DNA from: Cyanobacteria bacterium P01_F01_bin.150
Lineage (GTDB): Bacteria; Cyanobacteriota; Cyanobacteriia; CAKZMO01
Assembly: GCA_039189765.1 (NCBI GenBank)
Contig: JBCCYL010000024.1
Location: 1-64,000 of the forward strand
Direction: 5' to 3'
DNA: 64,000 nucleotides
A model generated the notes under the pieces. That model was given only the letters and a program-made list of their open reading frames with translations, searched no databases and was not told where the DNA came from. This document shows positions 24,246 to 44,383 of this stretch, piece after piece; within the stretch, counting starts at the first letter, position 1; each line of letters starts with the position of its first letter. The position numbers and the translations under genes were made by a program.

Positions 24246-24275
24246 GGATATTGAGCAGTGGGATATTGAGCAGTG
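24246..24275. promoter_or_regulatory. Perfect 15-bp tandem direct repeat (GGATATTGAGCAGTG)x2 abutting the start of the RND adaptor gene; candidate operator
   Basis: ggatattgagcagtgggatattgagcagtg read directly; overlaps GTG start at 24273. Confidence 0.3.
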
Positions 24276-25571
24276 GTTTCAAAAATTCCTGATGCATTAA
24301 AGCGCATTAACTGGCAGTGGTTATGGTTGTTGCCAGCGTTTATGGTGATAACGTTTTGGTTGGATCGATCTCGGTCAATGTCGGTTGGGGCAGGGGATGC
24401 TGTCGCTGCTCTGCCTGTGCAAACTCTAGTTCTGGAGAGTGTACCTGCCTATCAAGTGGAACGCACCTATAGTGGAAAAATTGTTGCCCGACGCAGCAGT
24501 GATCTTGGATTTGAACAAGCGGGTACTCTGGTAGACGTGCTGGTGGACGAGGGCGATGCGGTTGCCAAGGGAGAGCCACTGGCCCGGTTAGATATCCGTA
24601 GTCTGGAGGCCCAGCGGCAGCAGTTAGAGGCTCAGCGTCGTCAGGCCCAAGCTCGGTTTCAAGAACTACAGATTGGGCCACGCCAGGAAGATATTTCTGC
24701 GGCTCAAGCGACTGTTGATGATTTACAGGCACAGCTTGCCCTTGCCCGTCTACAACAGCAGCGTCGAGACAATCTGTATAGTGAGGGCGCAATTTCCCTC
24801 GAAGCAAGAGATGAGGCTGCGTTTGGGGCTGAGGCGTTGACGGGTCGTCTTAACCAGGCTCAAAGCCAACTGGATGAACTACAGGCCGGAACCCGAGTTG
24901 AACAGGTCAGCGCCCAGGATGCTCTGGTGGATGAAGTTGAGGCTGCGTTAAAGAATTTAGACGTCTCAATTTCTAAAAGTACGATCTATGCGCCCTTTGA
25001 CGGTCGGATATCGTTGCGGTGGCTGGATGAGGGAGCCGTCGTTAGTCCGGGGCAGGCGGTGATCAGACTGGTGGAAGGAAGTGCTCTGGAAGCTCGCATT
25101 GGTGTACCGAGCCAAATGGCTAATCGTATTATCACTGGGAGTCAGCACACAATCGATGTGAATGGTCAGGTGGTTAGCGGTCGAGTGACTGCGCTGCTGC
25201 CAGAGTTAGATGATGCCAGTCAAACGGTTACGGTGGTTATGACATTGCTAACCGATGCCCAGTTATCCATTGGCAAGTTAGCCATTGGCACAACGGTACG
25301 GTTAACCTTACAGGATGAGCAAAATGAAATTGGCTACTGGCTCCCGACCAGTGCGCTTGTTGCTGGAGAAAAAGGGTTGTGGTCAGCCTATGTGCTAAAC
25401 GAACCAGACAATCAGACGGAGGACAATCTCTATCAAGTTAGCCGTCGAGAGGTCGAGGTAATTTATACGGAGAGCGATCGCGTCTTTGTCCGAGGATTAT
25501 TGCAACCAGGGGAAGAGCTTATTACTAGTGGAACTCATCGCCTTGTTCCCGGTCAGCTTGTTCAGCATTAG
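24273..25571 (+). CDS. Efflux RND transporter periplasmic adaptor subunit (HlyD/MFP family)
   Basis: N-terminal TM anchor, coiled-coil region (..LEAQRQQLEAQRRQAQARFQELQ..), beta-barrel/MP domains; immediately followed by RND pump. Confidence 0.8.
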   Translation: MVSKIPDALKRINWQWLWLLPAFMVITFWLDRSRSMSVGAGDAVAALPVQTLVLESVPAYQVERTYSGKIVARRSSDLGFEQAGTLVDVLVDEGDAVAKGEPLARLDIRSLEAQRQQLEAQRRQAQARFQELQIGPRQEDISAAQATVDDLQAQLALARLQQQRRDNLYSEGAISLEARDEAAFGAEALTGRLNQAQSQLDELQAGTRVEQVSAQDALVDEVEAALKNLDVSISKSTIYAPFDGRISLRWLDEGAVVSPGQAVIRLVEGSALEARIGVPSQMANRIITGSQHTIDVNGQVVSGRVTALLPELDDASQTVTVVMTLLTDAQLSIGKLAIGTTVRLTLQDEQNEIGYWLPTSALVAGEKGLWSAYVLNEPDNQTEDNLYQVSRREVEVIYTESDRVFVRGLLQPGEELITSGTHRLVPGQLVQH

Positions 25572-25573
25572 GG

Positions 25574-28500
25574 ATGGTTGTTACGCTTGCTCGGCTTGAT
25601 ATGTTTAACCTGTTTTTTCGAAATCGACAGCTTTTGTTTTTAACGCTGACGCTGATTATCGTTTGGGGATTGTCAGCGTTTTTATCGTTGCCTCGATTAG
25701 AAGATCCTGAGATCGTGCAGCGATCGGCGACGGTGACAACATTTTTTCCAGGAGCAAATGCTGAGCGGGTCGAGTCGCTGGTGACGGACAAGGTTGAGGA
25801 AGAACTCTCTGATATTGAGGAGGTGGACGAGATTATATCGTCTTCTAGCCCTGGGATATCGGTGGTGACGGTCATCCTCAAGGATACATTTTCGGATGTG
25901 GATCCGGTGTTTGCGCGGGTGCGCAGTCAAATTGATGATGTGATTCCTGAACTGCCTCCTGAGGCCAGTCGGCCAGAGTACGAGGACCGAAAAGTAAAGG
26001 CCAGTGCCATCATTGTGGGGCTGACCTGGGACATCGATGACCCCGTTAACTATTCGATTCTGCGGCGGGTAACCGAGGGATTAGAAGCTAAGCTGCGGAA
26101 TTTGCCTGGCACAAAACGGGTAGAGCTATTTGGGGAGCCAGATGAAGAAATTCAAGTGGAAATCAGTCAGGCTGATTTGTTGAGATTAGGGATTAGCGCT
26201 CAAGGACTCGCTCAGCAGATTGCCACAAGTGATGCAAAGGTGTCTACGGGGGAACTCCAGGGAGACGCCATTGAGCTGTTTTTTGAGGTAGACAGCGTTT
26301 TGGATTCGTTGGATCGAATTCGAGCCATTTCAATTCAGGTAGGCGCAGATGGCCAAACGGCTCAGCTAGGAGACATTGCCCAGGTGACCAAGGGGATACA
26401 AACGCCGGTGTCTGACCTAGCGCTGGTGGCGGGAAAGCCCGCAATCGTTGTGGCTGCGACGGTGGAGTCTGACTACCGGGTGGATCAGTGGGCGCAGCAG
26501 GCGAAGAAAGTGCTGAATGACTTTGAAGCCGATCTGTCGGACGGTCTCGGCATCGTTATTGTGCTGGATCAGAGTCGGTATGTGCGGCAGCGACTCAATG
26601 GGGTGATTAGCAATCTTATCCTCAGTGCTATTTTGGTGCTTGGCATATCGCTTGTAGTGCTGGGATGGCGCTCGGCGTTAATTGTTGGCGCAGCGCTGCC
26701 GCTGTCTATTCTGATGGTCTTTGGCAGCATGGACATGGTGGACATTCCACTGCATCAGATATCGATTACTGGGTTAATTATTGCCTTGGGATTGCTGATC
26801 GATAATGCGATTGTGGTGGTAGATGAGGTGCGGGTGCATTTACAGGACGGCAGCCGTCCGGATGAAGCGGTGAAAGAGACGGTAAAACACCTGGCAATAC
26901 CGCTGCTGGCATCGACGCTGACAACCGTGCTGGCGTTTATTCCCATTGCGGTATTGCCAGGCAGTACGGGGGAATTTATTGGCCCCATTGGCGGTACGGT
27001 GATTTTGGCCCTGCTGAGTTCGTTGGCATTATCCCTAACGGTGATTGCCGCTCTGGCAGGGCTGGTTTATCGCTGGAAACCGATGCCAGAATCGTCCCAC
27101 AAACAGCACTGGAGCGTGGGAGGCTGGTCCAATCAGCGACTTTCTCGCCTTTATCAACATAGCTTGAGGGTGGTGTTTCGTCGGCCTATTCTCGGCGTTT
27201 TAGTGGCGATGGTACTGCCCGCTATTGGTTTTATTCAGTTTTCGAGCCTGCCGCAGCAGTTTTTTCCACCGACCAATCGAGATCAGTTTCAAATCGAACT
27301 GGAGCGACCTGCATCTAGCTCGATCGCCACCACGCGCACCCAAACCCTGGCCATTCGCGATCGCATTAGACAGCATCCGGCCATCAACGACATCCACTGG
27401 TTTTTAGGGGAGGATGCTCCATCCTTTTTCTATAATCTTTTGAGCAGTCGTCGTAATCAATCTGAATATGCCCAGGGCATTGTTCAGCTAGACTCAACCC
27501 AACATCTCCGAGACACGATTCAAACCTTGCAGACTGACCTAGATGCGGCCTTTCCAGATGCACAGATTCTGGTTAAACAGCTAGAGCAGGGACCGCCCAT
27601 TGATGCGCCGATTGAGGTCAGCCTTTATGGCCCCAATTTGAAACAGTTGCGCATGCTGGGGGAGCGACTCCGCTTAATTCTGTCTCAGATTGATGAGGTG
27701 ACCCATACTCGCGCTACACTGTCGGAACTGTCCCCCAAGCTGTCATTAGACGTGGATGAGGCGGCGGCAAAAAGGGTGGGGTTAAGTAATGGGGCGATCG
27801 CCGCCCAGCTCAATACGCTCCTCAACGGTCAACTTGGTGGCTCTATTCTTGAAGACACGGAAAATATTCCGGTGCGAGTGCGGCTACCGGACCAGGAGCG
27901 GGGCGACCTGTCGAGTATTGCCTCTGTGGATTTGCTCAGCGACCATGGCACAACGGTGCCGTTTTCTGCGGTGGCATCAGTTCAGCTTCGACCAGAGGTC
28001 AGCACCATTGCTCGGCGAGATGGGCAGCGCGTCAACACTGTCCAGGGATTTATTACGGCGGGGTCTTTACCCAGTAGCGTGCTAGCCGAGTTTCAGCAGG
28101 CACTCGCAGAGCAAGAGTTTGAGCTACCGCCAGGCTACCGCCTCAGCTATGGAGGGGAAGCCGATGCCCGAGGGTCGGCCGTGGGTAATCTGCTGTCTAC
28201 GGTGGGGGTTTTGATGGTGCTGATGACCGCAACCTTGGTTCTGTCGTTTAATTCCTTTGCCTTGGCGGGACTACTGGCCATTGTGGCCATAGCAGCAGTG
28301 GGTTTGGCCGCGATGGCACTATGGCTATTTAACTCTTTGTTTGGCTTTACGGCCATCCTTGGTACCCTGGGACTTATTGGTCTGGCCATTAATGACTCGA
28401 TTGTTGTTTTGGCCGCGTTGCAAGATGATCCGCTGGCATGTAAAGGAGACCCAATCGCCACGCAGCAGGTCGTAATTAAGGCGACGCGACATGTGGTGGC

Positions 28501-28675
28501 GACGACGGTGACCACGATGATTGGGTTTACGCCGTTACTGCTGGATGCCACTGGATTTTGGCCACCGTTGGCGATCGCGATCGCTGGCGGATTGGGGGGA
28601 GCGACAGTATTGGCACTGTACTTTATTCCAGCCGCACACCTGCTGATTTATCGGTCTAAAGGAAAGCCACTTTGA
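25574..28675 (+). CDS. RND family efflux transporter permease (AcrB/AcrD/AcrF-like), 12-TM with two large periplasmic loops
   Basis: 1033 aa; characteristic motifs ..LGLLIDNAIVVVD.. and ..GLAINDSIVVL..; operon with adaptor. Confidence 0.85.
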   Translation: MVVTLARLDMFNLFFRNRQLLFLTLTLIIVWGLSAFLSLPRLEDPEIVQRSATVTTFFPGANAERVESLVTDKVEEELSDIEEVDEIISSSSPGISVVTVILKDTFSDVDPVFARVRSQIDDVIPELPPEASRPEYEDRKVKASAIIVGLTWDIDDPVNYSILRRVTEGLEAKLRNLPGTKRVELFGEPDEEIQVEISQADLLRLGISAQGLAQQIATSDAKVSTGELQGDAIELFFEVDSVLDSLDRIRAISIQVGADGQTAQLGDIAQVTKGIQTPVSDLALVAGKPAIVVAATVESDYRVDQWAQQAKKVLNDFEADLSDGLGIVIVLDQSRYVRQRLNGVISNLILSAILVLGISLVVLGWRSALIVGAALPLSILMVFGSMDMVDIPLHQISITGLIIALGLLIDNAIVVVDEVRVHLQDGSRPDEAVKETVKHLAIPLLASTLTTVLAFIPIAVLPGSTGEFIGPIGGTVILALLSSLALSLTVIAALAGLVYRWKPMPESSHKQHWSVGGWSNQRLSRLYQHSLRVVFRRPILGVLVAMVLPAIGFIQFSSLPQQFFPPTNRDQFQIELERPASSSIATTRTQTLAIRDRIRQHPAINDIHWFLGEDAPSFFYNLLSSRRNQSEYAQGIVQLDSTQHLRDTIQTLQTDLDAAFPDAQILVKQLEQGPPIDAPIEVSLYGPNLKQLRMLGERLRLILSQIDEVTHTRATLSELSPKLSLDVDEAAAKRVGLSNGAIAAQLNTLLNGQLGGSILEDTENIPVRVRLPDQERGDLSSIASVDLLSDHGTTVPFSAVASVQLRPEVSTIARRDGQRVNTVQGFITAGSLPSSVLAEFQQALAEQEFELPPGYRLSYGGEADARGSAVGNLLSTVGVLMVLMTATLVLSFNSFALAGLLAIVAIAAVGLAAMALWLFNSLFGFTAILGTLGLIGLAINDSIVVLAALQDDPLACKGDPIATQQVVIKATRHVVATTVTTMIGFTPLLLDATGFWPPLAIAIAGGLGGATVLALYFIPAAHLLIYRSKGKPL

Positions 28676-28914
28676 GGAAGGCCAGTGTGGAACACCGATC
28701 AATATATGAACTTTAGGAATTGACATTTGAGCTAATTTGTGAGTAAGTCAGCTGTAGAGCAAAAAATATGACTATTTAGGGCGAAAGATATGACTAAATA
28801 TGAACTTTTAGGTATTTTGCCGATTTGGGATTTGCCCCATACTATGGACAACTAAATAACACAAGTCAAATCTAGCTTATGGCTGACTCCAAACAAAAGC
28901 TTGTAAGAAAATAT

Positions 28915-28998
28915 CCAATTAACTTTGGGCTTAAGGTTTAAGCCGGGAAGAATTTAACGGGATACTGGGGCGCGAAGCGCCCCAGTATCCCGCCTTAA
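28915..28998. repeat. Copy 1 of ~80-nt structured interspersed repeat (GGGCTTAA..TTAACGGGA-[15-bp stem]-GAAG-[stem]-TCCCGCCTTAAAA..ACAAGCC)
   Basis: Nested hairpins ggcttaaggtttaagcc and gggatactggggcgcg aag cgccccagtatccc; near-identical framework at 55755-55845 with different stem sequence. Confidence 0.75.
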
Positions 28999-29209
28999 AA
29001 GACAAGCCTAACTTTGTCATTTATAGGCGAAAATTTAGATATAGATATCAAGTTATTTTTGTCACTTTTTATTCTGTTCTTTCTGTTAGACTCATGTTTG
29101 CTGATAGCGTCTTTTTATAAATTCCTGCAACGATAAATCTGTAAATATTTACAAAGCAGTCATTATTGTTATTACAGCAATCGATTTTATCTAAGAGATA
29201 TATCTCAAA

Positions 29210-30055
29210 ATGACTAAATTTAAAAATCAACCATGGAATTTGTTTAAGCGTAAATTTGTTAGCTTTACCAAAAAGAAAGTTAATCCAACCCCAAGAGTCG
29301 TCACTGGTATAAAAAATCTTAATACCTATTCTCTATTAAAGAGTTGTCATGGCGTTAACTATTATCTTTGGAATGGGAGCGAATTTAATCCTAATCAGCC
29401 AACCTTCATCGTTACCCATGGATGGCGGGCCAAAGGCGCTAAATCTGGAGTTTTCCAGAAATTATTGGCTGCGATTAAGGCGCGTGCTACCCATGCCAAC
29501 GTCATTCTGGTTGATTGGACAGAATATTCTACTTCTTTAAACTATACAACGGTTAAAAATAATACTCTAAAGGTTGGGGACTGGGTCAGAAATTTTTTAA
29601 TTGACCTAAAGATTAACCCCGCTACAACGACCTTAATCGGTCACAGTCTTGGTGCACATATATTGGGCAATGCTGGAGACGGATATAGAAAAGAGATCGG
29701 TCGTTCAATTAATACCATTATTGCCCTTGAACCCGCTGGCCCACTGTATAGCACAACCTGCAAAGGCCAACGGTTAGATGACGGTGATGCAGCCCACGTG
29801 GTTGCGCTTCACTCCACTGATTTTATCGGATACAAAGGAGCCATAGGCGACGTAGATATTTACCTTAATGACTGGTCTTACGACAGCCAATCCGGCTTAA
29901 ACGGTTTGTTGTCTGCTGGACTAAGGCATCTCTATCCTGTCTTAGTTTTGACCGATTTATTTGAAGGCAAAAGATTTAAACAAGGTGATAATTCATCATT
30001 TTCGCTGACTTGCCTTTATACTCGGTCCGGCAGTTCTGTCGTTAAGACCATCTAA
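29210..30055 (+). CDS. Pancreatic-lipase/phospholipase-A1-like alpha/beta hydrolase (GHSLGAH nucleophile elbow)
   Basis: Motifs ..PTFIVTHGW.. and ..LIGHSLGAHILGNAG.. typical of the pancreatic lipase-type lipase family; AT-rich codon usage unlike neighbours. Confidence 0.65.
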   Translation: MTKFKNQPWNLFKRKFVSFTKKKVNPTPRVVTGIKNLNTYSLLKSCHGVNYYLWNGSEFNPNQPTFIVTHGWRAKGAKSGVFQKLLAAIKARATHANVILVDWTEYSTSLNYTTVKNNTLKVGDWVRNFLIDLKINPATTTLIGHSLGAHILGNAGDGYRKEIGRSINTIIALEPAGPLYSTTCKGQRLDDGDAAHVVALHSTDFIGYKGAIGDVDIYLNDWSYDSQSGLNGLLSAGLRHLYPVLVLTDLFEGKRFKQGDNSSFSLTCLYTRSGSSVVKTI

Positions 30056-30067
30056 GCCAACTTAGTT

Positions 30068-31414
30068 ATGGGACTAAAAAACATGACGAAGACTAACACC
30101 ATACCCAACAGTTTGCCCACTCAAGATCAACTTTCACAAACAGTGATGGACTTAATTATAAAGTTTATCGAACCCTGTGAGAATGACGAATTTGCGATCG
30201 AATTATGGAACGGTCAACGTTGGGACCCCACACCGGAAAAGACCCGTGCCACTCTGATTATTCGTGACCCTGGGGCTATTCGTACCCTACTCTTTTCCGG
30301 GGGAACCCTTGCCCTTGCAGAGCTATATATGGGCGGTCGAGTAGACATTGTGGGTGAGATTGAGGCGATGCTGCCTTTGGTGGATTACCTGATCACGCTA
30401 AAGCCAAAATGGAGTGACGTGCTGCCAGTCGCCGTAAAGCTGCTCAAATTTTCTGACAACAGCAACCATCAAAACGGTCAGATTAGTCATGAGCCTGCGG
30501 TTGTGTCTGGCGATCCTAAAAGTCGCCAGCGCGTTGGCGATGCCATTAAATATCACTATGATCAGCCATCGGAGTTTTGGCAGCTTTGGCTTGACCCCTA
30601 CATGCAGTATACCTGTGCCTATTTTCAGGACGAGGACGACGATCTGGCTACGGCACAGCTCCAAAAGATGGACTACATTTGTCGGAAATTGCGTCTCCAG
30701 CCTGGAGACCGCTTTTTGGACCTCGGCTGTGGTTGGGGTGGATTAGCCGTTTATGCAGCCAAGCACTATCAGGTCCAGTCGGTAGGCATTACCATTAGCA
30801 AATATCAGGCGGAATATGCACAAAACTGGATTAAGCGGGAAGGATTAGACGATATTTGCCGTGTCGAACTAGGGGATTTTCGGGATGCCCTAAACTTTGA
30901 AAAGTTTGACAAGGTAGCTGGGGTTGGTATTCTTGAACACCTCACTTCGCACTTAATCAATGAATATTTTGAGACCGCGTGGACGTGCTTAAATCCGGGG
31001 GGGATCTTCCTAAACCATGCCACGGGTTCTGTTGCAAGGCAACCCACTCGCAAGGGTAAGTCGTTTATGCATCGCTATATTTTTCCAAATACTGAACTTA
31101 TTCCCATTAATGATGTGTTGGCGGTAGCCGATCGGACGGGATTTGAAATTCGGGACTTGGAGAATCTACGGGAGCATTACCGATTGACGTTAATCCGCTG
31201 GCTCAAGAACTTTGAGGCCAATTCTAGTCAGGTTCTTGAATTTATGGATAAATCAGCATACCGTGCCTATCAGCTCTACTTTGTCGGCTGTATCTATGAC
31301 TTCAATATTGGACGAAATAATCTTTATCAGTCTCTCTACGTGAAGCCAAAGAACAATAAAAGTGGAATGCCTTTATCACGGGCATACCTGTATAAAGGCA
31401 TGGATAAAGCATAG
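30068..31414 (+). CDS. Cyclopropane-fatty-acyl-phospholipid synthase family SAM-dependent methyltransferase
   Basis: CFA synthase/mycolic acid cyclopropane synthase family signature incl. SAM motif I ..FLDLGCGWGGLAVYAAKHY.. and downstream ..GVGILEHL.. ; 13 nt after lipase stop. Confidence 0.8.
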   Translation: MGLKNMTKTNTIPNSLPTQDQLSQTVMDLIIKFIEPCENDEFAIELWNGQRWDPTPEKTRATLIIRDPGAIRTLLFSGGTLALAELYMGGRVDIVGEIEAMLPLVDYLITLKPKWSDVLPVAVKLLKFSDNSNHQNGQISHEPAVVSGDPKSRQRVGDAIKYHYDQPSEFWQLWLDPYMQYTCAYFQDEDDDLATAQLQKMDYICRKLRLQPGDRFLDLGCGWGGLAVYAAKHYQVQSVGITISKYQAEYAQNWIKREGLDDICRVELGDFRDALNFEKFDKVAGVGILEHLTSHLINEYFETAWTCLNPGGIFLNHATGSVARQPTRKGKSFMHRYIFPNTELIPINDVLAVADRTGFEIRDLENLREHYRLTLIRWLKNFEANSSQVLEFMDKSAYRAYQLYFVGCIYDFNIGRNNLYQSLYVKPKNNKSGMPLSRAYLYKGMDKA

Positions 31415-31432
31415 GATTTACGTGGAAAAAGC

Positions 31433-32305
31433 ATGATTGAATCAACTCAAGGGCTGTATTTACCCACATATGCCAGTCGAGAAGGCTTTAAACCAGGTGT
31501 TTGTGTGGGTATGGCTATCGTTCACATTATCGCCTGTCTAGCGCCATGGTACTACACCCCCTATTCCCTACCTTTGCTATTGGGCGGATGGATGCTAACG
31601 GGTGGGATCGGAATTTCAATTGGTTACCATCGGCTGCTGGCCCATCGTAGTTTTGACACATTTATGTGGTTAAAGTATCTCTTTGCCACCTTCGGGGTTT
31701 TGTCCGTACAGTCCGGACCGATTACATGGGTTGGCTCGCATCGCCTCCACCATAGGTTTACCGACCAGGAGCTAGATATTCATACGCCTAAAGCTGGTTT
31801 TTTGTGGGGACATATGGGCTGGATTGTTTTTGAACACCCCATGATTGCCGCGAAACCATTGGGAACGTACGCAGCGGATATTGCCAAGGATCCAGTCTTT
31901 CAAGTCCTCGATCGGTATTATCTGGGCATCAATATTCTGTTGGGAATCATCTTGTTGGGAATCGGATATTTATGTGGTGGCATGCACACGGCCCTATCTT
32001 TTTTGATTTGGGGAGGATTTCTGCGCATTGTTTTTACGTGGCACTGTATATTCTCAGTTAACTCAGTTTGCCACTATTGTGGATATCGTAACTTCGACCT
32101 CTCTGATGATAGCTACAATAACCCTCTTGTTTCATTACTGACCTTTGGTGAAGGCTGGCACAACAACCATCATTTCTGTCCCTCTTCAGCTAGTTTATCG
32201 TTGCGTCCCTTCGAAATTGATGTCGCTTATTACTTTATTGCTTTGCTACAGAAACTAGGGTTGGCTTGGAATGTTCGAGTTAAAACTAGAAATAAGAGTA
32301 CTTAA
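31433..32305 (+). CDS. Membrane fatty-acid desaturase, Delta9 (DesC/stearoyl-CoA desaturase-type) with three His boxes
   Basis: His boxes HRLLAH, HRLHHRF, HNNHH with spacing typical of Delta9 acyl-lipid/acyl-CoA desaturases; 18 nt after CFA-synthase stop. Confidence 0.8.
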   Translation: MIESTQGLYLPTYASREGFKPGVCVGMAIVHIIACLAPWYYTPYSLPLLLGGWMLTGGIGISIGYHRLLAHRSFDTFMWLKYLFATFGVLSVQSGPITWVGSHRLHHRFTDQELDIHTPKAGFLWGHMGWIVFEHPMIAAKPLGTYAADIAKDPVFQVLDRYYLGINILLGIILLGIGYLCGGMHTALSFLIWGGFLRIVFTWHCIFSVNSVCHYCGYRNFDLSDDSYNNPLVSLLTFGEGWHNNHHFCPSSASLSLRPFEIDVAYYFIALLQKLGLAWNVRVKTRNKST

Positions 32306-32392
32306 AATTCAAGATGGGAAAGGTTTAACGAAAGGTTGGATCACCAAGTATCTTCTAAGAAACACGACGTGTTTCTTGCATTTTTAACGTGT

Positions 32393-32432
32393 TGTGTCGG
32401 TGAGGCCGACACAACACGTTAAAGGCTCCTAA
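32393..32432. repeat. Perfect 18-bp-stem hairpin (ttaacgtgttgtgtcgg tgag gccgacacaacacgttaa) downstream of desaturase; member of TTAACG-flanked hairpin family or terminator
   Basis: Direct reading of inverted repeat; flanks TTAACG/CGTTAA as in repeats at 28950, 51350, 55790. Confidence 0.6.
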
Positions 32433-33564: not shown

Positions 33565-34026
33565 TTGCGCTATTGCACCTAAAACGTCTGTCTTTACTCA
33601 ATTCATAAAAGCATAAAGGCGCTTACAACTTAAACAGACTTCATTTTAGGGCCAGTTTTTACTAGATTTTACGGATCGGAGCGATCGCAGCCTGTAAAGA
33701 GGCTAGAGGATTACGAAATTGTGCGGAAACAGAAAAGAACTTTGATGAAGATTTCAAGTACTTTTACTTAACCGTCATGGATGAGCGTTAGCTACCCTTT
33801 CGTACAAACTCTTATGGATACGAAGCAAAATCTCAGTGTATACACTATAATCTTTGGATAAGAGAGAGTAGTTCGGGTGCATGTAGTTAGAAGAAACGAC
33901 CTAAATTGGTACGCTAGTTCCAAAAAAGGTTCTGAAAACTGCTTAAGGTGTAGGGTTCCATCTAACTGTGTCGTTCCATAGCTAATAGAACTGTTGCATT
34001 CCCCTAGCGGGGCTTCCTTGAATTTC

Positions 34027-34236
34027 ATGACTGTTTTAACAAATGTGCGCCCACTTAAAGTGCGGTTAAGAGAAACTGTTGAACGGATTATCAAGTCAGG
34101 CTGTATTACACGAGCTGATGAAGACTTACTGTTCCATGCTGCAACCTCAGATCAAGTATTGACCCAAGAAGAAATGAAGCTGGTACAGCGGGTCTTCGAT
34201 CGTCTTCAGATGAATATGCTAAAGCTTTCAGACTAA
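34027..34236 (+). CDS. Small hypothetical protein (~70 aa)
   Basis: ORF in a 1-kb otherwise non-coding gap; no recognisable family; weak. Confidence 0.2.
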   Translation: MTVLTNVRPLKVRLRETVERIIKSGCITRADEDLLFHAATSDQVLTQEEMKLVQRVFDRLQMNMLKLSD

Positions 34237-34583
34237 GACCCCTAAATTAGAGAACGTTTGAGAAATCCGATCCTTTTAAGCGACGTTGCTAGGAAGTAAG
34301 TTACTAGTGGCTTAGACGGTTAAAAATCATCAATGTTCCCATTAAAAGCGTGGATTGGGTAAATCGCGTCTGCTGATTTTCTAATCGTTTACATTGTGAC
34401 TACAAGATTCGGATTTGTCTTAGCCATTTGAGTATGCTCAAGCCGAGTGATTTGAGATGGTGGCCATTGCTTCTGCTCATGGGTAGGAGTGCCAGGCTGA
34501 ACTTCTGAGAAATCATCTTTTTAATATTCGTCAACAAATACAATCCGGCAGGGATTCTCTCCTCATCTATGTATGACATGCAA

Positions 34584-34608
34584 GAGTGCTAGCACTCTAA
34601 GATTTTTT
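34584..34608 (+). terminator. Terminator-like perfect 16-bp palindrome agagtgctagcactct followed by T6 (plus-strand orientation), abutting stop of minus-strand permease gene
   Basis: Direct reading; could terminate an unannotated plus-strand transcript from 34240-34600 or act bidirectionally. Confidence 0.35.
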
Positions 34609-35985: not shown

Positions 35986-37452
35986 CTAAGCTGCTGGCGA
36001 ACAGCAGCGGCAGCTTGACGCAAGCTGATCGAGCACAGCAGCGGCAGCTTGACGCCCAGAAAGGGTCGCCCCTTCCATGCTGTCAATGTAATCTTGCTGC
36101 GTGTAACTCCCTGCAAGAAAGAAGTTACTCACTGGAGTCTTCTGAGCAGGGCGATAGGGTTCCATTCCTGGGGCTTCCCGATAAAGAGACTGGGCCAGCT
36201 TAACAACGCTGTACCAGGTCATATTCAAATCGCGGGAAGAGGGGAACAGCTTACGGACCTGCTCAAGCACATGCTCAGCAATGACTTCTTTCCGCTCTTT
36301 AATAAACGGATCTCCCGGCGTCAACACTAATTGAAGCAGTGACCCCTCGCCTTCTTTGTAATAATCGGCAGGACTAGTGAGGGCTAAATCGGCAAAACAT
36401 GAGAAATCAGCATCAGGAGTGTAAAGCAGGTTGTCCAAGCCGGTGGCATGCTCAAGCTGAGTTCGCTCCGCATGATCCTGCATTTCCGTAACCCAACCAT
36501 CAAACCGTAGCTGCACCGTGACGACGGGAACCGCATCCAACTTGTAGAGGTTATCGAACTGCTCCCATTTACGCCAGCCCTCAGGCACTAAACGCTGGAT
36601 GCCGGGCACATCACAAGCACAAACATAGGCATCCGCTTTAACCGTACTAACGTCACTGCCTTGGGAGACTTCCAATCCTGTTACTTTAGTATTGTCCCCC
36701 TCACTCTCAAAATGCACCTCACGCACCTGGTTGCGCAGGTGAATCTTAACGTTGTGCTTCTCCAAATAATCCACAATTGGACGGTGCAAATATTCACCAG
36801 GCGACCCTTCCAACATCCGCAAAATGGACGCTTCTGTGCGAACGGCAAAGAATTGGAAGATGGTAAGCATACACCGGGCAGAAATATCTTCGGTGTCGAT
36901 AAACCCTAGGGCATAGGCAATGGGGTCCCACATCCGCTTTAAGCTGCCGTTGGACCCTCCATGACTGCGAAACCAGTCAGCAAAGCTAACGTTATCTAGG
37001 CCTCGAATGGTTTTCATTGCTCCATCGAAATCCACTAAGCCCCGCACGATGGGACTAGTGCCCAAGGCAAGGGAGTTAGACAGCTTGTCCTGGACCGAAA
37101 GTTGAGACGTGGTAAAAAAGGCTTTAAGACCATTAAAGGGCGCTCCGGTCAAGAAGCGAAAATCAAGCGCCCCTAAATCACCGCCCTCGTTGACAAAGGT
37201 GTGAGTATGCTCCTTAAGCCGCAGATCTTTGAAGGAGCCAACCTTTTTCATCAGCTCAAATAAATTGTAGTAGCAGCCGAAAAAGACATGCAGGCCCATT
37301 TCAATATGATTGCCGTCTTTGTCTACCCAACTGCCCACTTTGCCGCCAACAAAGGAACGAGACTCAAAAATTTCTACTTCATGACCCGCGTCTACCAGCT
37401 CCACTGCAGTGGACAATCCAGCTAACCCCGCGCCAACAATTGCGACCCGCAT
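35986..37452 (-). CDS. pds: 15-cis-phytoene desaturase (plant/cyanobacterial PDS type); C-terminus altered by a 34-bp tandem duplication
   Basis: FAD-binding N-terminus [19 protein letters not shown].., ..[33 protein letters not shown].. full-length PDS/CrtP family; see finding on 35990-36060. Confidence 0.9.
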
Positions 37453-37551: not shown

Positions 37552-38664
37552 CTAAGCTGGTACGTTATTTTCTGGCAGGTCTCTCATACTATCGCTGGGT
37601 AGCTTTGATTCATAGACTATAGATGTGTCCAGAAGACGCAGTTCTGAACAGCGCGATCGCCCATAATACTGCTGATACCAAGTCACAAACTGCTGAAGAC
37701 CATCTTCAAGCTTGGTTTTAGGCACAAAGCCAATGGCTTGATTTAGGGCATCCACATCCGCATAGGTTTCCAGCACATCACCAGGTTGTAGCGGCAGCAT
37801 ATTTTTTTGAGCGTTAACTCCAAGACAGCGTTCCAAGGTCTGGATAAAGTCCATAAGGGTAACAGGCTGATGATTCCCAATATTGTAGATACGGTAAGGC
37901 GCTTGGCTGGTGCTGGGATCGGGACAGTGGCCGGACCACAGACGATCAGCCTGGGGCGTATGGGGAAGCAGTCGCACAATCCCTTCCACAATATCGTCAA
38001 TATAGGTAAAGTCGCGACTCATATTGCCATAGTTGTACACATCAATGGGTCGGCCTTCTAGAATGGCCTGGGTAAATTTATAGGTCGCCATATCTGGTCG
38101 CCCCCAAGGACCGTAAACGGTAAAGAATCGCAGCCCCGTACTGGGGATGCAATAAAGATGGCTGTAAGCATGGGCCATCAGTTCATTAGCTTTTTTAGTC
38201 GCTGCATAGAGGCTGATGGGGTGATCCACATTATGCTGAACGGAAAAGGGGACAGCGCGATTGGCTCCATAGACCGAACTGGATGAGGCAAAGATCAAAT
38301 GTTTGACTTTATAGCTGCGGCATCCCTCCAAAACATGGAAAAATCCCACCAAATTACTGTCCGTATAGGCATGGGGATTGTCGAGGGAATAGCGTACTCC
38401 GGCTTGGGCGGCTAAGTGAATCACATCGTCAGGCTGATATTCGCCAAACAGCCACTCCATTGCTGCGCGATCGCTCAAGTCTATCTTATGGAACTGAAAA
38501 TTAGGATAGGGCTGAAGCTGAGCCAGGCGATCGCCCTTTAGCTGAACGCTGTAGTAATCATTGAGATTGTCCATCCCGATGACGGTATAACCATTATTCA
38601 ACAGTGCTTTGGCAACGTGATACCCAATAAAGCCAGCAGCACCAGTGACAAGAATCGTTGACAT
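37552..38664 (-). CDS. NAD-dependent UDP-glucuronate 4-epimerase-like (SDR extended family)
   Basis: ..ILVTGAAGFIGYHVAKAL...G..V.G.DNLNDYY....K..RL..L, catalytic YAATKKANELMAHAY; family typical of UDP-GlcA->UDP-GalA epimerases. Confidence 0.75.
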   Translation of the reverse strand: MSTILVTGAAGFIGYHVAKALLNNGYTVIGMDNLNDYYSVQLKGDRLAQLQPYPNFQFHKIDLSDRAAMEWLFGEYQPDDVIHLAAQAGVRYSLDNPHAYTDSNLVGFFHVLEGCRSYKVKHLIFASSSSVYGANRAVPFSVQHNVDHPISLYAATKKANELMAHAYSHLYCIPSTGLRFFTVYGPWGRPDMATYKFTQAILEGRPIDVYNYGNMSRDFTYIDDIVEGIVRLLPHTPQADRLWSGHCPDPSTSQAPYRIYNIGNHQPVTLMDFIQTLERCLGVNAQKNMLPLQPGDVLETYADVDALNQAIGFVPKTKLEDGLQQFVTWYQQYYGRSRCSELRLLDTSIVYESKLPSDSMRDLPENNVPA

Positions 38665-38676
38665 GGGTTCTAATCC

Positions 38677-40044
38677 TTAATAGTGGGTTAAATTCAACGC
38701 CTGTAAAACGGGGGGATGATCGCCTACCGGAAAATGTAGGACACTCAGTTTGCCGGGGGAGAGTGGCAGAGTGGGGGCCAAACCATGACGAAGACGAATG
38801 GTTTTAGCGATCAACGATTGCAGAGTGGGGATAGGGGCGATCGCCATTCCCGTAATCAGTCGCTTCTTGGCCGGATCGGTATGATTTTCCTGGTCTAAGG
38901 CCCGATGCCATTGACGGGCAAAGTCATGGCGTTGAACCTGGAGCTGCACCAGATTTGTACGGTCCTGAAATAGCTGCTGGGCGATCGCTTGGGCGACCGG
39001 ATCGGTTTGCGTCAGACTATAGGCCATCGGCATATCTGCCAGATGCTGGCGAATGGTAGTCGTTTGTTGCATTAACTGATCTGTCGCACGGTCTGACTGA
39101 GGAGCTACAGGGAGTAACAGTAGACGTAAGCCCTGTTTGCCTGCTTTAAGTTTGGGTAAGGGTTCCCCCAAGTGGCACGTGCAGTTCAAAACCCGCAGTT
39201 GGGCAGTGGATGTGGGCTGGGAATAGTCGAGGATACTAATGCCACCATTGGACTGTTGTAAACGGTGGTGAAATCGCGGCGAGAGTCCTAAGGCCGTGCT
39301 GATAAGGGCATGGTTGGTACCGCCATGGCTGACAACTAAGATGGTTTGACCAGGATGGTTGGGAAGAGTGGCTTGCCAAAAAGCTTGGGCTTGACGATAC
39401 AGCTCCAGAATCGGAAACGTCTTTTGCGGTTTAGGATGTAGCGCCTGTGTGGTCGTTTTGTCCAATCCTCTGGAGCTAGCAAATCCTCCGGGGCTAGATA
39501 ATCCTCTGGGGCTAGATAATGGAACGACAGACTGGCGGTCAAGATTCATCTGAAATTCGTGGGGCCGTTTGAGCCAGCATTGGTAGGCGATCGCCTCTTC
39601 ACTACGCACATCTTTGTAGCATCGCCCTTCCCACTGCGGCAGATTAATTTCCCGTAATCGTTCCGAAAAAATAGGTGCAGGCATTGGATATTGACTCGTT
39701 TTTGCCGCAATCCCTTCTGTCGTTTCACGGACCCGTTTTAGGGGACTAGCATACACTGCATCCACAGGAATAGAGGAAAGAATGGTGCCAACCCTATGGG
39801 CCTGCTGCCAGCCTTGGGCATTTAATACTGAATCATTGCTGCTGCCCTGGTATCGCTGTTGATCGTTGAAGGTGCTGCGGCCATGGCGGACTAGGATGAC
39901 ACGGGTGGTATAAGGGCCACAAGGGGGGAGATTAAACCAGTTACGGATATAACTAGTATTAGCCTTATCGTTGGTGGTTCTGGAGTCGGGCTGATTTGAG
40001 GAGATGTCGGTTAATGGTTGGCGTTGTTCAATAAGAGAGAGCAT
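38677..40044 (-). CDS. Histidine phosphatase (phosphoglycerate-mutase-like) family protein with in-frame repeat insertion; ORF track start 40143 overlaps ABC gene, likelier start MLSLIEQ
   Basis: RHG motif ..VILVRHGRSTFN.. and ..VVSHGGT..; tandem ggggctagataatcctct x2 at 39470-39520 encodes SSPRGLSSPGG. Confidence 0.6.
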   Translation of the reverse strand: MLSLIEQRQPLTDISSNQPDSRTTNDKANTSYIRNWFNLPPCGPYTTRVILVRHGRSTFNDQQRYQGSSNDSVLNAQGWQQAHRVGTILSSIPVDAVYASPLKRVRETTEGIAAKTSQYPMPAPIFSERLREINLPQWEGRCYKDVRSEEAIAYQCWLKRPHEFQMNLDRQSVVPLSSPRGLSSPGGFASSRGLDKTTTQALHPKPQKTFPILELYRQAQAFWQATLPNHPGQTILVVSHGGTNHALISTALGLSPRFHHRLQQSNGGISILDYSQPTSTAQLRVLNCTCHLGEPLPKLKAGKQGLRLLLLPVAPQSDRATDQLMQQTTTIRQHLADMPMAYSLTQTDPVAQAIAQQLFQDRTNLVQLQVQRHDFARQWHRALDQENHTDPAKKRLITGMAIAPIPTLQSLIAKTIRLRHGLAPTLPLSPGKLSVLHFPVGDHPPVLQALNLTHY

Positions 40045-41893
40045 AGGGTCGTTCTCCTTTTCGGGGTTGGGCGGGGGATGGGTTACCCATCTGTAGATGA
40101 TAGAGGTGGGCATACCGGGCGTTGAGTTGAAGCAGTTCATCATGACTTCCCTGTTCTAAAATGCGGCCCTGCTCGATATATAAAATATGGTCAGCCGTTT
40201 GAGCCGTATGGAGATTATGGGAAATCAAAAAGGTGGTTTTGCCCTGAACCAGTCGATTAAGGGCAGAGGTGACGAGGCGATCGCTTTCGTTATCTAACCC
40301 CGTGGTGGGTTCATCCAAAATCAGAATAGGAGCCTTACGGACCGCAGCGCGGGCAATGGCAATCCGCTGTCGCTGTCCCCCTGACAGGGTTGCCCCTCGT
40401 TCCCCCAAAACAGTGTCGTAGCCGTCTGGTAGCTGTAGGATAAAGTCATGGGCATTGGCCAGTTTAGCCGCTGTCTCAATATCGTCCTGGGTCGCAGTAA
40501 GACAGCCATAGGCAATATTCTCTCGGATGGTGGTGGCAAATAGCACGCTGTCCTGGAGCACAATACTAAAGCGCTGTCGCAGAGTGTCGAGGGTATAGTC
40601 TCGAATGTCCTGACCATCAATAAGAATCGCGCCATCGCTGGGGTCATAGAACCGCATCAGCAAACTGACCAGGGAGGACTTGCCACCACCAGACGGACCC
40701 ACCAACGCCACTTTTTGGCCCGGCATGATGTGAAAATTCAAGTCTTTCAGGGTGCCGTGGTGTTCGTCATAGCCAAAGTAAACAGCCTGGAATTGGATGG
40801 CACCTTGAAAGGATGGGGTGGGTTGGGCATGGGGGCGATCGCTTATTTTGGGCACCGTATCAAGAATATCTAAAATCCGTTCACCCGAAGCCGTCGCCTT
40901 GGCAATTTGTCCCGTGTACTTCGCCAGTTGGCGCATGGGCTTAAAGGCCACTTTTAGATAGGTGGTGAACACCAGCAGGTCGCCTGCGGTCAAGGCTCCC
41001 TGAAGCACTAATTGAACGCCGCGCCAGAGGACAAGGGCAGTGGCGATCGCCACTAACACTTCCACTAGACGTTCTTGGCCTGCCCTTAGCTTTTGGGCCT
41101 GGGCACTTTCCCTAAGGCTTTTACGATTCTGACGGCTAAAGCTCCGTTCCAGCATGTCCTGAAGCCCAAGTGCTTTTACCACTTTGATGGCACCAATCGA
41201 CTCAGCAACTGAGGCGGCCATGGCTCCCTCTCGTTTACGCTGACGTCGGGCCACGTCTCGAATTTTGCGGGTCATTTTTACAGTGGACAGGGCAAACAGC
41301 GGCAGGACCAACAGGGCAATCATCGCTAGTTCCCAATTTAGCCACAGCATTACGCCCAACATACCCACTAGGGTCAGCCAATTGGTGAGTAATGGCAGCA
41401 CGGCCACAACGGTGACTTCTCGCAGCCGCTCAATATCGTAAGTAACACGGGTAATCAAATCCCCACTTTTATGCTGGTGATGAAAGCTAAGAGACAGCCG
41501 CTGAATATGGCTAAAAAGCTGGCCACGAATCGCGGTCATAATATGGGTTGCGGCAACGGCCATCCCGACGGTGCTAAAGTAGGCCGCTCCTCCTCGTAAA
41601 CTAGAAACCCCGACCAGGGAAAGGGTAAGTACGGTCAATAAACTCAAGGGATGGAGGCCAAAGGTATCCGGGGATGCAGTCAAATCAGTTCCAGCAGAAA
41701 AGCCAGGAAGAATGACGCGATCGAACATAAATTTCAGGGGCCACGGCTCCAGGAGTCGCATCGCAGTTTCCAGCAGCAACGCCAGAAACGACAGAGATAA
41801 GAGTCGTTTTTCTTTAACAATCTGGGGCTGAAACTGCCGCAGAATTCGACCAATACCTGGAATGGATTTTTTCAATGATTGATGACTGGGCAT
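40028..41893 (-). CDS. ABC exporter, fused TMD-NBD (MsbA/type I exporter-like)
   Basis: 6-TM N-terminal domain; Walker A GPSGGGKSS, signature LSGGQRQRIAIARA, Walker B ILILDEPT. Confidence 0.85.
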   Translation of the reverse strand: MPSHQSLKKSIPGIGRILRQFQPQIVKEKRLLSLSFLALLLETAMRLLEPWPLKFMFDRVILPGFSAGTDLTASPDTFGLHPLSLLTVLTLSLVGVSSLRGGAAYFSTVGMAVAATHIMTAIRGQLFSHIQRLSLSFHHQHKSGDLITRVTYDIERLREVTVVAVLPLLTNWLTLVGMLGVMLWLNWELAMIALLVLPLFALSTVKMTRKIRDVARRQRKREGAMAASVAESIGAIKVVKALGLQDMLERSFSRQNRKSLRESAQAQKLRAGQERLVEVLVAIATALVLWRGVQLVLQGALTAGDLLVFTTYLKVAFKPMRQLAKYTGQIAKATASGERILDILDTVPKISDRPHAQPTPSFQGAIQFQAVYFGYDEHHGTLKDLNFHIMPGQKVALVGPSGGGKSSLVSLLMRFYDPSDGAILIDGQDIRDYTLDTLRQRFSIVLQDSVLFATTIRENIAYGCLTATQDDIETAAKLANAHDFILQLPDGYDTVLGERGATLSGGQRQRIAIARAAVRKAPILILDEPTTGLDNESDRLVTSALNRLVQGKTTFLISHNLHTAQTADHILYIEQGRILEQGSHDELLQLNARYAHLYHLQMGNPSPAQPRKGERPYALSY

Positions 41894-41903
41894 AGTGTGT
41901 CCT

Positions 41904-43019: not shown

Positions 43020-43090
43020 GATGATCGAATGTGGATAGACGAACTTGGATAAATAAAGTTGGATAAACGAGCTTGAGTTGTGTCGTTTGA

Positions 43091-44338: not shown

Positions 44339-44350
44339 GGAAACTCCTTT

Positions 44351-44383
44351 GATTTTGGATTTTGGATTTTGGATTTTGGATTG
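44351..44383. repeat. Heptamer tandem repeat (TTTTGGA)x4.5 immediately 5' of GT4 start codon
   Basis: gattttggattttggattttggattttggattg; on mRNA strand reads (UCCAAAA)n just upstream of AAGGAG SD and AUG. Confidence 0.9.

What the first reader, a model, noticed from the sequence alone, without database searches (positions are those of the whole stretch)
29041..32305. AT-rich three-gene lipid cassette: pancreatic-type lipase, CFA-synthase-family methyltransferase, Delta9 desaturase
Three same-strand genes sit 13 and 18 nt apart, so they are likely co-transcribed. Their A/T-rich codon usage differs from the flanking RND and TauE genes, and they are bounded by repeat clusters (28700-28998) and a long hairpin (32393-32432). 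The encoded chemistry is coherent: a desaturase makes a cis double bond, a CFA-synthase-type enzyme methylenates or methylates it, and a GHSLGAH lipase could release or transfer the modified acyl chain. The lipase family (pancreatic lipase/PLA1 type) is uncommon in cyanobacteria. Candidate functions are membrane remodelling under stress or biosynthesis of a modified (cyclopropane or branched) fatty acid, possibly horizontally acquired.
Basis: partly seen in the sequence, partly recalled or inferred. Interest (0 to 1): 0.6.

Follow-up and report, generated by a model that had tools for sequence, protein, structure and literature searches.

The report
Cyanobacterial lipase–cyclopropane synthase–desaturase gene trio
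A marine cyanobacterial genome carries three tightly packed genes that probably add a double bond to membrane fatty acids, convert it to a cyclopropane ring (or methyl branch) and clip the chain off; the last two genes are a rare conserved pair, while the first looks like a later add-on.

Summary
The three genes are real and intact on the + strand. They are a PF00151 lipase (29210-30055), a two-domain CFA-synthase-family methyltransferase (MT; 30068-31414) and a Δ9-family His-box desaturase (31433-32305). The gaps are 12 and 18 nt, and two stacked hairpins follow the last gene.

"AT-rich cassette" is only partly right. Only the lipase is a compositional outlier (GC 0.41, z = -2.6). The MT and desaturase are within the window's normal range.

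The conserved unit is MT→desaturase. It recurs in 5 of the 6 loci of a very rare clade, which has one hit among 185,579 species genomes. It occurs in 0 of 80 more distant cfa loci.

The lipase is linked to the pair only here. Its 75% ortholog sits elsewhere, and its 52% paralogs head lipase-CdsA-Pss-Psd operons.

The MT keeps all E. coli Cfa catalytic and bicarbonate-binding residues. Sister genes that sit behind a P450 have His→Gln at one of these positions. The lipase is a short, cytoplasmic, PLA1-like enzyme with a Ser-Glu-His triad, and its nearest relatives are marine cyanobacteria, not animals.

Best reading: an accessory module that modifies acyl chains on membrane lipids (desaturate, then cyclopropanate or methylate), with a recruited PLA1-type deacylase. 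The product is not determined. I rate it a new variant of a known kind, of moderate interest.

The parts
28676..29209 (+). 534-nt AT-rich intergenic region upstream of the lipase gene (sliding-window GC about 0.34). It contains short imperfect direct repeats (28755-28812; 28704/28798) and presumably the promoter.
   Evidence: No consensus sigma-70 promoter was found on the + strand here, which says little for cyanobacteria.
28958..28992 (.). Perfect 16-bp palindrome with a 3-nt loop and no T run. It may be the RND-operon terminator or an insulator. It is unique in the window.
29210..30055 (+). 281-aa single-domain lipase of the pancreatic-lipase family (PF00151), PLA1-like. The triad is S146 (GHSLGAH, nt 29639-29659), E174 (ALEPAGP, nt 29723-29743; Glu where the family has Asp) and H240 (nt 29927-29929). 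It has no signal peptide, no TM segment and no lid disulfide. GC is 0.410.
30068..31414 (+). 448-aa (443 aa from Met6) SAM-dependent methyltransferase of the CFA-synthase/CMAS family. Its two-domain architecture matches the phospholipid-type enzymes (N-terminal DUF7884-like domain). The SAM motif LDLGCGWGG is at nt 30716-30742. The E. coli Cfa C139/G236/E239/H266/Y317 equivalents are C183, G287, E290, H317 and Y371.
31433..32305 (+). 290-aa membrane di-iron desaturase of the Δ9 (DesC/acyl-CoA) family. The His boxes are HRLLAH (nt 31628-31645), HRLHH (31739-31753) and HNNHH (32159-32173). It has two long hydrophobic regions.
32356..32423 (+). Two stacked hairpins just after the desaturase stop: 32356-32378 (10-bp stem followed by a T run, terminator-like) and 32383-32423 (18-bp perfect arms). 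They are the likely 3' end of the transcription unit. They could also terminate the convergent TauE gene.
   Evidence: z = -8.0.

Best explanation
This is an accessory module that modifies acyl chains on membrane lipids. Its core is a co-inherited pair.

The Δ9-family membrane desaturase puts a cis double bond into a glycerolipid-bound acyl chain. Cyanobacteria make cis-unsaturated chains with O2-dependent desaturases of this kind (own knowledge).

The two-domain, phospholipid-type CFA-synthase homolog then transfers a methylene from SAM onto that double bond. Because every catalytic and bicarbonate-ligand residue of E. coli Cfa is retained, the most likely product is a cis-cyclopropane acyl chain.

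In this genome only, a cytoplasmic PLA1-like Ser-Glu-His hydrolase of the pancreatic-lipase family has been placed 12 nt upstream and is probably co-transcribed. It most likely deacylates the sn-1 position of a polar lipid, so that modified or unmodified chains are released or exchanged (remodelling).

Shown: gene integrity, family membership, catalytic residues, conservation of the MT-desaturase pair, and the rarity of the clade.

Inferred: the substrates, the order of the reactions, the product, and any functional coupling of the lipase.
For: - Families and residues.
- C183, G287, E290, H317 and Y371 of the MT align with E. coli Cfa C139, G236, E239, H266 and Y317.
- The NCBIfam CfaB model aligns over its full length, positions 17-393 of 393.
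- MT→desaturase adjacency occurs in the window, L005/6/7, L008, L010 and L012. Divergence of the two genes is parallel: 62/61, 61/61, 60/58 and 92/79% identity.
- 0 of 80 metagenomic cfa loci at 30-42% identity (790 kb) hold a desaturase, and neither of two outgroup genomic loci does.
- The lipase has no hydrophobic leader (maximum KD19 1.24), no lid cysteines, a short lid and a short β9 loop. Its best fold match is venom PLA1 4qnn (TM 0.67).
- The 52% lipase paralogs sit directly beside phospholipid-synthesis genes in three loci (CdsA-Pss-Psd in L002 and L013, CdsA in L001; a PlsC-type acyltransferase is also present in L002 and L003). This ties that branch to polar-lipid metabolism.
- The gaps are 12 and 18 nt with no intervening intergenic hairpin, and strong hairpins follow the third gene.
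Against: - No experiment supports any step.
- CFAS-family enzymes with the same residues can give methyl, methylene or vinyl products. UfaM and FshF are examples, and FshF gives both cyclopropane and vinyl products in vitro (PMC7380195, PMC13548996).
- The MT scores below every NCBIfam equivalog cut-off (306 < 650; 235 < 400), so it is not an ortholog of a characterised Cfa.
- The lipase-MT link is seen only in this genome. The closest lipase ortholog is not linked, and the lipase differs in composition. Its coupling may therefore be incidental.
- The desaturase could act after the MT rather than before it.
- The acid residue of the lipase triad is Glu, not the family's Asp.
Confidence: 0.5

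Rival explanations
1. The MT is a methylase rather than a cyclopropane synthase (UfaM-, BfaB- or FshF-like), and the neighbouring desaturase acts after it (UfaD-like). The product would be a methyl-branched mono- or di-unsaturated chain, or a cyclopropene. In sister loci the P450 would oxidise it further, for example to a furan-type fatty acid.
For: - In every locus the gene order is MT then desaturase.
- The sister subclade is always preceded by a 498-aa P450, and twice also by a second desaturase.
- There is precedent for methylase → desaturase → oxygenase acting on phospholipid-bound chains (PMC7380195).
- A cyanobacterial CFAS homolog gives non-cyclopropane products (PMC13548996).
- The desaturase is only about 45% identical to ordinary cyanobacterial Δ9 desaturases.
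Against: - The window has no P450.
- The window's MT keeps His317 (the Cfa H266 equivalent), whereas the P450-linked subclade has Gln there. The two subclades may therefore differ in chemistry, with the window's enzyme the canonical one.
- G287 (the Cfa G236 equivalent) is also kept.
Confidence: 0.25
2. The lipase is a separately acquired gene that merely landed in front of the MT-desaturase pair and has no functional link to it. The 'three-gene cassette' is really a two-gene module plus a neighbour.
For: - Lipase GC is 0.410, against 0.466 and 0.450 for its partners.
- The whole lipase family is AT-rich in every context.
- The 75% ortholog in L004 follows a GT2 glycosyltransferase and has no MT downstream.
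- The paralogs serve a different operon.
- None of the other clade loci whose flanks are held carries a PF00151 gene; L012 is cut upstream of its MT fragment.
Against: - A 12-nt spacing on the same strand, with no terminator in between, makes co-expression likely.
- Every close member of this lipase branch (ortholog and 52% paralogs) lies next to lipid or glycolipid genes. L005 has a different α/β-hydrolase convergent on the pair, which hints at a recurrent need for a hydrolase.
Confidence: 0.2
3. The genes tailor a fatty-acyl moiety of a secondary metabolite, with an ACP-tethered substrate as for FshD/FshF in fischerazole biosynthesis.
For: A cyanobacterial membrane desaturase and a CFAS-family MT occur together in the fsh cluster (PMC13548996).
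Against: - No FAAL, ACP, PKS, NRPS or halogenase was found among the large ORFs (at least 120 aa) scanned from about 27 kb upstream to about 29 kb downstream of the trio.
- The MT has the N-terminal domain of the phospholipid-acting enzymes.
- The neighbours are housekeeping or transport genes.
Confidence: 0.05

Closest known systems
Cyclopropane-fatty-acyl-phospholipid synthases (E. coli Cfa, PDB 6bqc; P. putida CfaB; Lactobacillus 5z9o)
   Same: - PF02353 core plus an N-terminal domain.
- SAM motif and all bicarbonate/catalytic residues are kept (C183, G287, E290, H317, Y371).
- E=3e-55 to 5z9o.
   Different: - About 35-45% identity only, and below all NCBIfam equivalog cut-offs.
- It belongs to a tiny cyanobacterial clade that is always followed by its own desaturase. 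The 30-44%-identity cfa genes examined here (82 loci from other bacteria and metagenomes) have no desaturase beside them.
Cyanobacterial acyl-lipid Δ9 desaturases (DesC family) and acyl-CoA Δ9 desaturases
   Same: - PF00487.
- Eight-His motif (HRLLAH, HRLHH, HNNHH), matching size, and hydrophobic regions.
   Different: - At most 46% identical to ordinary cyanobacterial members.
- Genetically tied to a methyltransferase.
- Regiospecificity and lipid substrate are unknown.
PLA1 members of the pancreatic-lipase family (vespid venom PLA1 4qnn; PS-PLA1; LPL catalytic domain)
   Same: - Same fold: Foldseek E=3e-17, TM 0.67.
- About 300 aa in a single domain, GHSLGAH elbow, short lid and short β9 loop.
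   Different: - Bacterial, cytoplasmic (no signal peptide) and without a lid disulfide.
- Catalytic Asp replaced by Glu in this clade.
- Linked to lipid-biosynthesis genes rather than secreted.
UfaM-UfaD-UfaO furan fatty acid pathway of Rhodobacter and Rhodopseudomonas (PMC7380195)
   Same: A CFAS-family methylase is genetically and functionally coupled to a desaturase, both acting on phospholipid-bound chains. In sister loci an oxygenase (P450) is added.
   Different: - The desaturase here is a His-box membrane enzyme, and as far as I know it is not a UfaD homolog (own knowledge; not tested).
- No UfaO-type (DUF1365; own knowledge) match and no P450 was found among the window ORFs scanned with Pfam.
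- The window's MT keeps a canonical Cfa active site.
FshD/FshF of the fischerazole cluster, Fischerella PCC 9431 (PMC13548996)
   Same: A cyanobacterial membrane desaturase together with a CFAS-family MT. That paper notes a group of cyanobacterial MTs of undescribed function.
   Different: - FshF acts on ACP-tethered chains inside a PKS/NRPS cluster, and none is present here.

Membership tests
Pancreatic lipase family (PF00151) | Significant match to the family profile above Pfam's gathering score | tested here: met
   106.7 bits against a cut-off of 27, E=2e-30. LPL and PLA1 chains match at E=1e-17 to 2e-13.
Pancreatic lipase family (PF00151) | α/β-hydrolase fold of the family's catalytic domain | tested here: met
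   The AF2 model has pLDDT 80 and pTM 0.81. The top 21 Foldseek hits in the PDB are all PLA1, LPL or pancreatic lipases.
Pancreatic lipase family (PF00151) | Ser-acid-His triad at the family's positions (GXSXG elbow, xLDPAGP Asp, His after the lid) | tested here: met
   S146 and H240 are invariant in the 14-sequence alignment. The acid position is E174 (ALEPAGP) in the six close cyanobacterial members and Asp in all others. The acid is retained, but as Glu.
Secreted animal-type lipases (PL/LPL) | Signal peptide, lid disulfide and C-terminal PLAT domain | tested here: not met
   Only 281 aa. The Pfam match stops at profile position 231 of 336. No hydrophobic leader (KD19 maximum 1.24), and no Cys flanking the lid.
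PLA1 subgroup of the family | Short lid (about 7-12 residues) and short β9 loop (criterion from own knowledge of the PLA1 literature) | tested here: met
   12 residues lie between Q227 and H240, as in insect PLA1. LPL has a 6-residue insertion in the β9 loop relative to the query.
PLA1 subgroup of the family | sn-1 phospholipase activity | not testable with these tools
   Needs an enzyme assay.
Cyclopropane fatty acyl phospholipid synthase (Cfa/CfaB) | CMAS domain with SAM-binding motif | tested here: met
   PF02353 at 264 bits. LDLGCGWGG lies at aa 217-225.
Cyclopropane fatty acyl phospholipid synthase (Cfa/CfaB) | Bicarbonate-ligand and catalytic residues C139, E239, H266, Y317 (and G236) of E. 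coli Cfa | tested here: met
   The equivalents C183, E290, H317, Y371 and G287 are seen in the phmmer alignment to 6bqc. His317 is replaced by Gln in the P450-linked sister subclade.
Cyclopropane fatty acyl phospholipid synthase (Cfa/CfaB) | N-terminal domain of the phospholipid-acting enzymes | tested here: inconclusive
   DUF7884 scores 26.7 bits against a cut-off of 27. The CfaB model aligns from position 17 to 393 of 393. Only weak N-terminal alignments to 5z9o and 7qos were found.
Cyclopropane fatty acyl phospholipid synthase (Cfa/CfaB) | Score above the NCBIfam equivalog cut-off (orthology to a characterised enzyme) | tested here: not met
   CfaB 306.5 < 650; PRK11705 235 < 400; CPFASynBruc 217 < 600.
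Cyclopropane fatty acyl phospholipid synthase (Cfa/CfaB) | The product is a cyclopropane ring | not testable with these tools
   Needs GC-MS or NMR of the product.
Δ9-type membrane fatty acid desaturase | PF00487 match, three His boxes with eight His, and membrane-spanning hydrophobic regions | tested here: met
   70.2 bits against a cut-off of 29.7. The boxes are H66/H71, H103/H106/H107 and H243/H246/H247. Hydrophobic regions lie around aa 18-45 and 164-190.
Δ9-type membrane fatty acid desaturase | Δ9 regiospecificity | not testable with these tools
   It is only 40-46% identical to proteins that sources name Δ9 desaturases.
UfaM/UfaD/UfaO furan fatty acid system | Presence of UfaD- and UfaO-type partners next to the methylase | tested here: not met
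   Pfam scans of the large ORFs (at least 120 aa) from about 27 kb upstream to about 29 kb downstream show no DUF1365-type protein. The only amine-oxidase-type protein is a 488-aa phytoene/ζ-carotene-desaturase-like gene at 35986-37452 on the other strand. The partner here is a His-box desaturase.
Fischerazole-type (FshD/FshF) acyl-ACP tailoring | Embedding in a FAAL/ACP/PKS/NRPS cluster | tested here: not met
   None of these domains occurs in the window ORFs scanned.

The most novel reading that the evidence does not exclude
The MT-desaturase pair defines a previously uncharacterised cyanobacterial pathway for an unusual lipid-bound fatty acid. In the sister subclade it adds a P450, a second desaturase and a His→Gln active-site change. 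Candidate products are a cyclopropene, a methylated conjugated diene or a furan-type fatty acid, made with enzymes not homologous to UfaD/UfaO. In this genome a bacterial, cytoplasmic Ser-Glu-His member of the 'animal' pancreatic-lipase family would release or redistribute the product. The same lipase branch heads AT-rich lipase-CdsA-Pss-Psd operons. That would imply acquired phosphatidylserine/phosphatidylethanolamine synthesis in cyanobacteria, a phylum generally regarded as lacking these lipids.
Probability: 0.2. Interest if true: 0.7.

Novelty: new variant of a known kind. Interest (0 to 1): 0.42.

Why it matters
Cyclopropane or other SAM-modified fatty acids are not regarded as normal cyanobacterial membrane components, and cfa-type genes in this phylum are largely uncharacterised.

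A self-contained desaturase + cfa module shows how an organism that makes its double bonds with desaturases can acquire this membrane modification. It also offers a compact two- or three-gene part for engineering cyclopropane or branched fatty acids in photosynthetic hosts.

The cytoplasmic bacterial branch of the pancreatic-lipase family, tied to phospholipid genes, is an unstudied enzyme group.

None of this overturns current understanding, and every part belongs to a known enzyme family.

Tried and rejected
1. Precursor of 7-/8-methylheptadecane. The methyltransferase for that pathway was still unidentified in 2014 (PMC3903477). I rejected this MT clade as the general enzyme. It is found in only 1 of 185,579 species genomes and in no named Nostocales protein among the best 120 hits, whereas branched alkanes occur in well-studied strains such as Anabaena/Nostoc PCC 7120 (PMC3903477).
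2. Recent animal-to-cyanobacterium transfer of the lipase. The word-indexed search suggested insect PLA1 as the next-closest relatives. The exhaustive profile search found 159 representatives at E<=1e-30. The best-scoring insect/crustacean entries are multi-domain proteins whose scores add up over several lipase domains, and the best short single-stretch hits that carry names are cyanobacterial.
3. Secondary-metabolite cluster. No PKS, NRPS, FAAL or ACP is present.
4. Flanking repeats as mobile-element ends. The hairpins are unique, with no copies in the window or in 96 loci. No transposase lies next to the trio in the window.
5. Rfam. Only two tRNAs were found, far from the trio.
6. Promoter/terminator scan. 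Counts were not above the shuffled expectation.
7. JGI metagenome scan. No close relative was found; the best hit was 42% identical. I used it only as a background set for the adjacency test.
8. Shared RND context. The RND and MFP genes next to the paralogous lipase in L002 are 48-49% and 46% identical to the window's, but the orientation differs. I treat this as possible coincidence.
9. The P450 of the sister loci gave no informative match to solved structures.


Full report
**What is there**

The window comes from a cyanobacterial MAG. The three proteins are 100% identical to entries of 'Cyanobacteria bacterium P01_F01_bin.150' on a 77.7-kb contig. Other genes in the window fit a cyanobacterial chromosome: ndhF3/D3/chpY-type genes, pebA/pebB-type bilin reductases and a ζ-carotene-desaturase-like gene.

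Three intact + strand ORFs lie at 29210-30055 (281 aa), 30068-31414 (448 aa, or 443 aa from Met6 as NCBI annotates it) and 31433-32305 (290 aa). The gaps are 12 (or 27) and 18 nt.

Pfam assigns them as follows:
- Lipase PF00151: 107 bits
- CMAS PF02353: 264 bits, plus a borderline DUF7884 N-terminal domain
- FA_desaturase PF00487: 70 bits

A 534-nt AT-rich spacer separates the trio from an upstream MFP-RND pair (24273-28675). It holds a unique 16-bp palindrome (28958-28992). Two stacked hairpins lie at 32356-32378 (followed by a T run) and 32383-32423. Their RNA fold z-score is -8.0, and they separate the trio from a convergent TauE gene.

**Composition**

Over 40 ORFs the window GC is 0.483 ± 0.028.

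| ORF | GC | z | GC3 |
|---|---|---|---|
| Lipase | 0.410 | -2.6 | 0.379 |
| MT | 0.466 | -0.6 | 0.497 |
| Desaturase | 0.450 | -1.2 | 0.454 |

Only the lipase is an outlier. The visual contrast comes from the GC-rich RND gene (0.531) and the AT-rich spacer.

All members of this lipase branch are AT-rich relative to their contigs, at 0.35-0.41 against 0.40-0.48. The low GC is therefore a property of the gene family, or of its source. It is not a property of a three-gene island.

**The methyltransferase**

- It aligns over its full length with the P. putida CfaB model, but below every equivalog cut-off.
- It matches solved Cfa enzymes at E=3e-55 to 4e-46.
- All residues that bind bicarbonate or catalyse the reaction in E. 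coli Cfa are kept: C139→C183, G236→G287, E239→E290, H266→H317 and Y317→Y371.
- Relatives above 60% identity are extremely few.
- A pattern scan of 185,579 species genomes found one locus. The JGI metagenome scan found none closer than 42%.
- The next relatives, at 42-45% identity, are stand-alone cfa genes of Chloroflexota, Bacteroidota and Acidobacteriota.

**The conserved unit is MT→desaturase**

| Locus | MT identity | Desaturase identity | Other features |
|---|---|---|---|
| L005/6/7 | 62% | 61% | P450 upstream |
| L008 | 61% | 61% | P450 and a second desaturase upstream |
| L010 | 60% | 58% | P450 and a second desaturase upstream |
| L012 (Tara contig) | 92% (C-terminal part only) | 79% | IS200-type transposase downstream |
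| L009 | about 69% by tblastn (called product P0018: 72%) | no desaturase | MT frameshifted |

In contrast, 0 of 80 more distant cfa loci (790 kb) contain a Δ9-family desaturase, a PF00151 lipase or the P450.

The flanking genes differ between loci, which fits a mobile accessory module.

Within the clade there are two subtypes:
- The window, L012 and L009 keep His at the Cfa H266 position.
- L005, L008 and L010 have Gln there. These are exactly the loci where a 498-aa P450 precedes the MT.

The window's enzyme is thus the more canonical one. Inferences drawn from the P450 loci should be transferred to it with caution.

**The desaturase**

It has the complete eight-His motif (HRLLAH, HRLHH, HNNHH) and two long hydrophobic regions. 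It is at most 46% identical to ordinary cyanobacterial Δ9 desaturases.

**The lipase**

- It is a genuine member of the pancreatic-lipase family.
- The AF2 model (pLDDT 80) matches hornet venom PLA1 best (TM 0.67), then LPL and pancreatic lipases.
- It is a single domain with no leader or TM segment and no lid cysteines. The lid is short (12 residues between Q227 and H240) and so is the β9 loop, which is the PLA1 pattern.
- The triad is S146/E174/H240. Glu replaces the family's Asp in all six close cyanobacterial members.
- The word-indexed search found only 14 homologs. The exhaustive profile search found 159 representatives at E<=1e-30.
- The best short single-stretch hits that carry names are marine cyanobacteria: Leptolyngbya SIO3F4, Crocosphaera, Richelia and the P01 bins. 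Some of these are fused to RTX or cadherin modules.

The family is therefore rare in cyanobacteria but has its own branch there. No recent animal origin is indicated.

**Lipase linkage**

- The 75% ortholog (L004) follows a GT2 glycosyltransferase and has no MT in the 338 nt downstream.
- The 52% paralogs include one in the same MAG. They head lipase-CdsA-Pss-Psd operons, next to a PlsC-type acyltransferase or a PKS and an MFS/RND set.
- A distant Pseudanabaena member has no lipid neighbours.

This branch is consistently tied to polar-lipid genes. Its link to the MT-desaturase pair is unique to this genome.

**Mechanism**

The best explanation (confidence 0.5) has three steps:
1. The desaturase supplies a cis double bond on a lipid-bound chain.
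2. The Cfa-type MT converts it, most likely to a cyclopropane.
3. The co-transcribed PLA1-like hydrolase deacylates polar lipids for release or remodelling.

The rivals are:
- A UfaM/UfaD-like order, giving methyl-branched or diene products (0.25; precedents PMC7380195 and PMC13548996).
- An incidental lipase neighbour (0.2).
- A natural-product tailoring role (0.05; no PKS/NRPS context).

**Verdict**

The 'AT-rich three-gene island' does not hold as stated. The biologically meaningful unit is a rare MT-desaturase pair, with a lineage-specific lipase added. I rate it a new variant of known lipid-modifying systems, of moderate interest.

Noticed in passing
L002 8001-11459; L013 10001-13548; L001 1869-3882: Paralogs of the lipase (about 52% identity; one is in the same MAG as the window) head an AT-rich operon: lipase, CdsA, CDP-alcohol phosphatidyltransferase (Pss-like) and phosphatidylserine decarboxylase. 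Its GC is 0.33-0.42. It lies next to a PlsC-type acyltransferase (L002) or a 2454-aa PKS (L013), plus an MFS gene. This would give PS/PE synthesis to cyanobacteria, which are generally held to lack these lipids. One literature search found no paper describing it.
   Followed up: partly
L005 6403-10235; L008 4240-9012; L010 1139-5911: The sister subclade of the MT-desaturase pair is always preceded by a 498-aa P450, and in L008 and L010 also by a second Δ9-family desaturase (about 35% identical). Its MT has Gln instead of the His equivalent to E. coli Cfa H266. It may be a distinct oxidised or methylated fatty acid pathway. ABC (cNMP-binding) and FtsX/MacB genes recur nearby.
   Followed up: partly
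L009 7604-8903: The subclade-A MT copy on contig L009 (about 69% identical by tblastn; its called product P0018 is 72%) is split into two ORFs, apparently by a frameshift. It has no adjacent desaturase, so it is a likely pseudogene or an assembly error.
   Followed up: no
window 24273-28675 and L002 1-4092: The MFP-RND pair just upstream of the trio is 46% and 48-49% identical to the MFP-RND pair that lies near the paralogous lipase operon in bin.116. The orientation differs. It could be coincidence, or a lipid-export link.
   Followed up: partly
window 4647-8717 and 58075-61776 (- strand): There are two giant WD40-repeat proteins. The first (1356 aa) carries three TIR_2 domain matches N-terminal to the WD40 array, an architecture of the NLR/defence-like type.
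   Followed up: no
window 4327-4399 and 4406-4478 (- strand): Two adjacent tRNA genes are the only Rfam matches at gathering score in the window.
   Followed up: no
window 38677-40143 and 40028-41893 (- strand): The mechanical ORFs for a histidine-phosphatase-family protein and an ABC exporter overlap by 116 nt. The downstream gene's start is probably later than the first in-frame start. They sit at the edge of a glycosyltransferase/UDP-glucose dehydrogenase cluster (37552-48619).
   Followed up: no
window 33565-34606: About 1 kb has no ORF of 120 aa or more and has low GC (0.39-0.43). It lies between TauE and an ABC-2 permease gene and holds only short overlapping ORFs (80-100 aa).
   Followed up: no
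protein P0255 (Rhynchophorus ferrugineus, 4769 aa): An insect protein has 17 tandem PF00151 lipase domains. It topped the profile search only because the domain scores add up.
   Followed up: no
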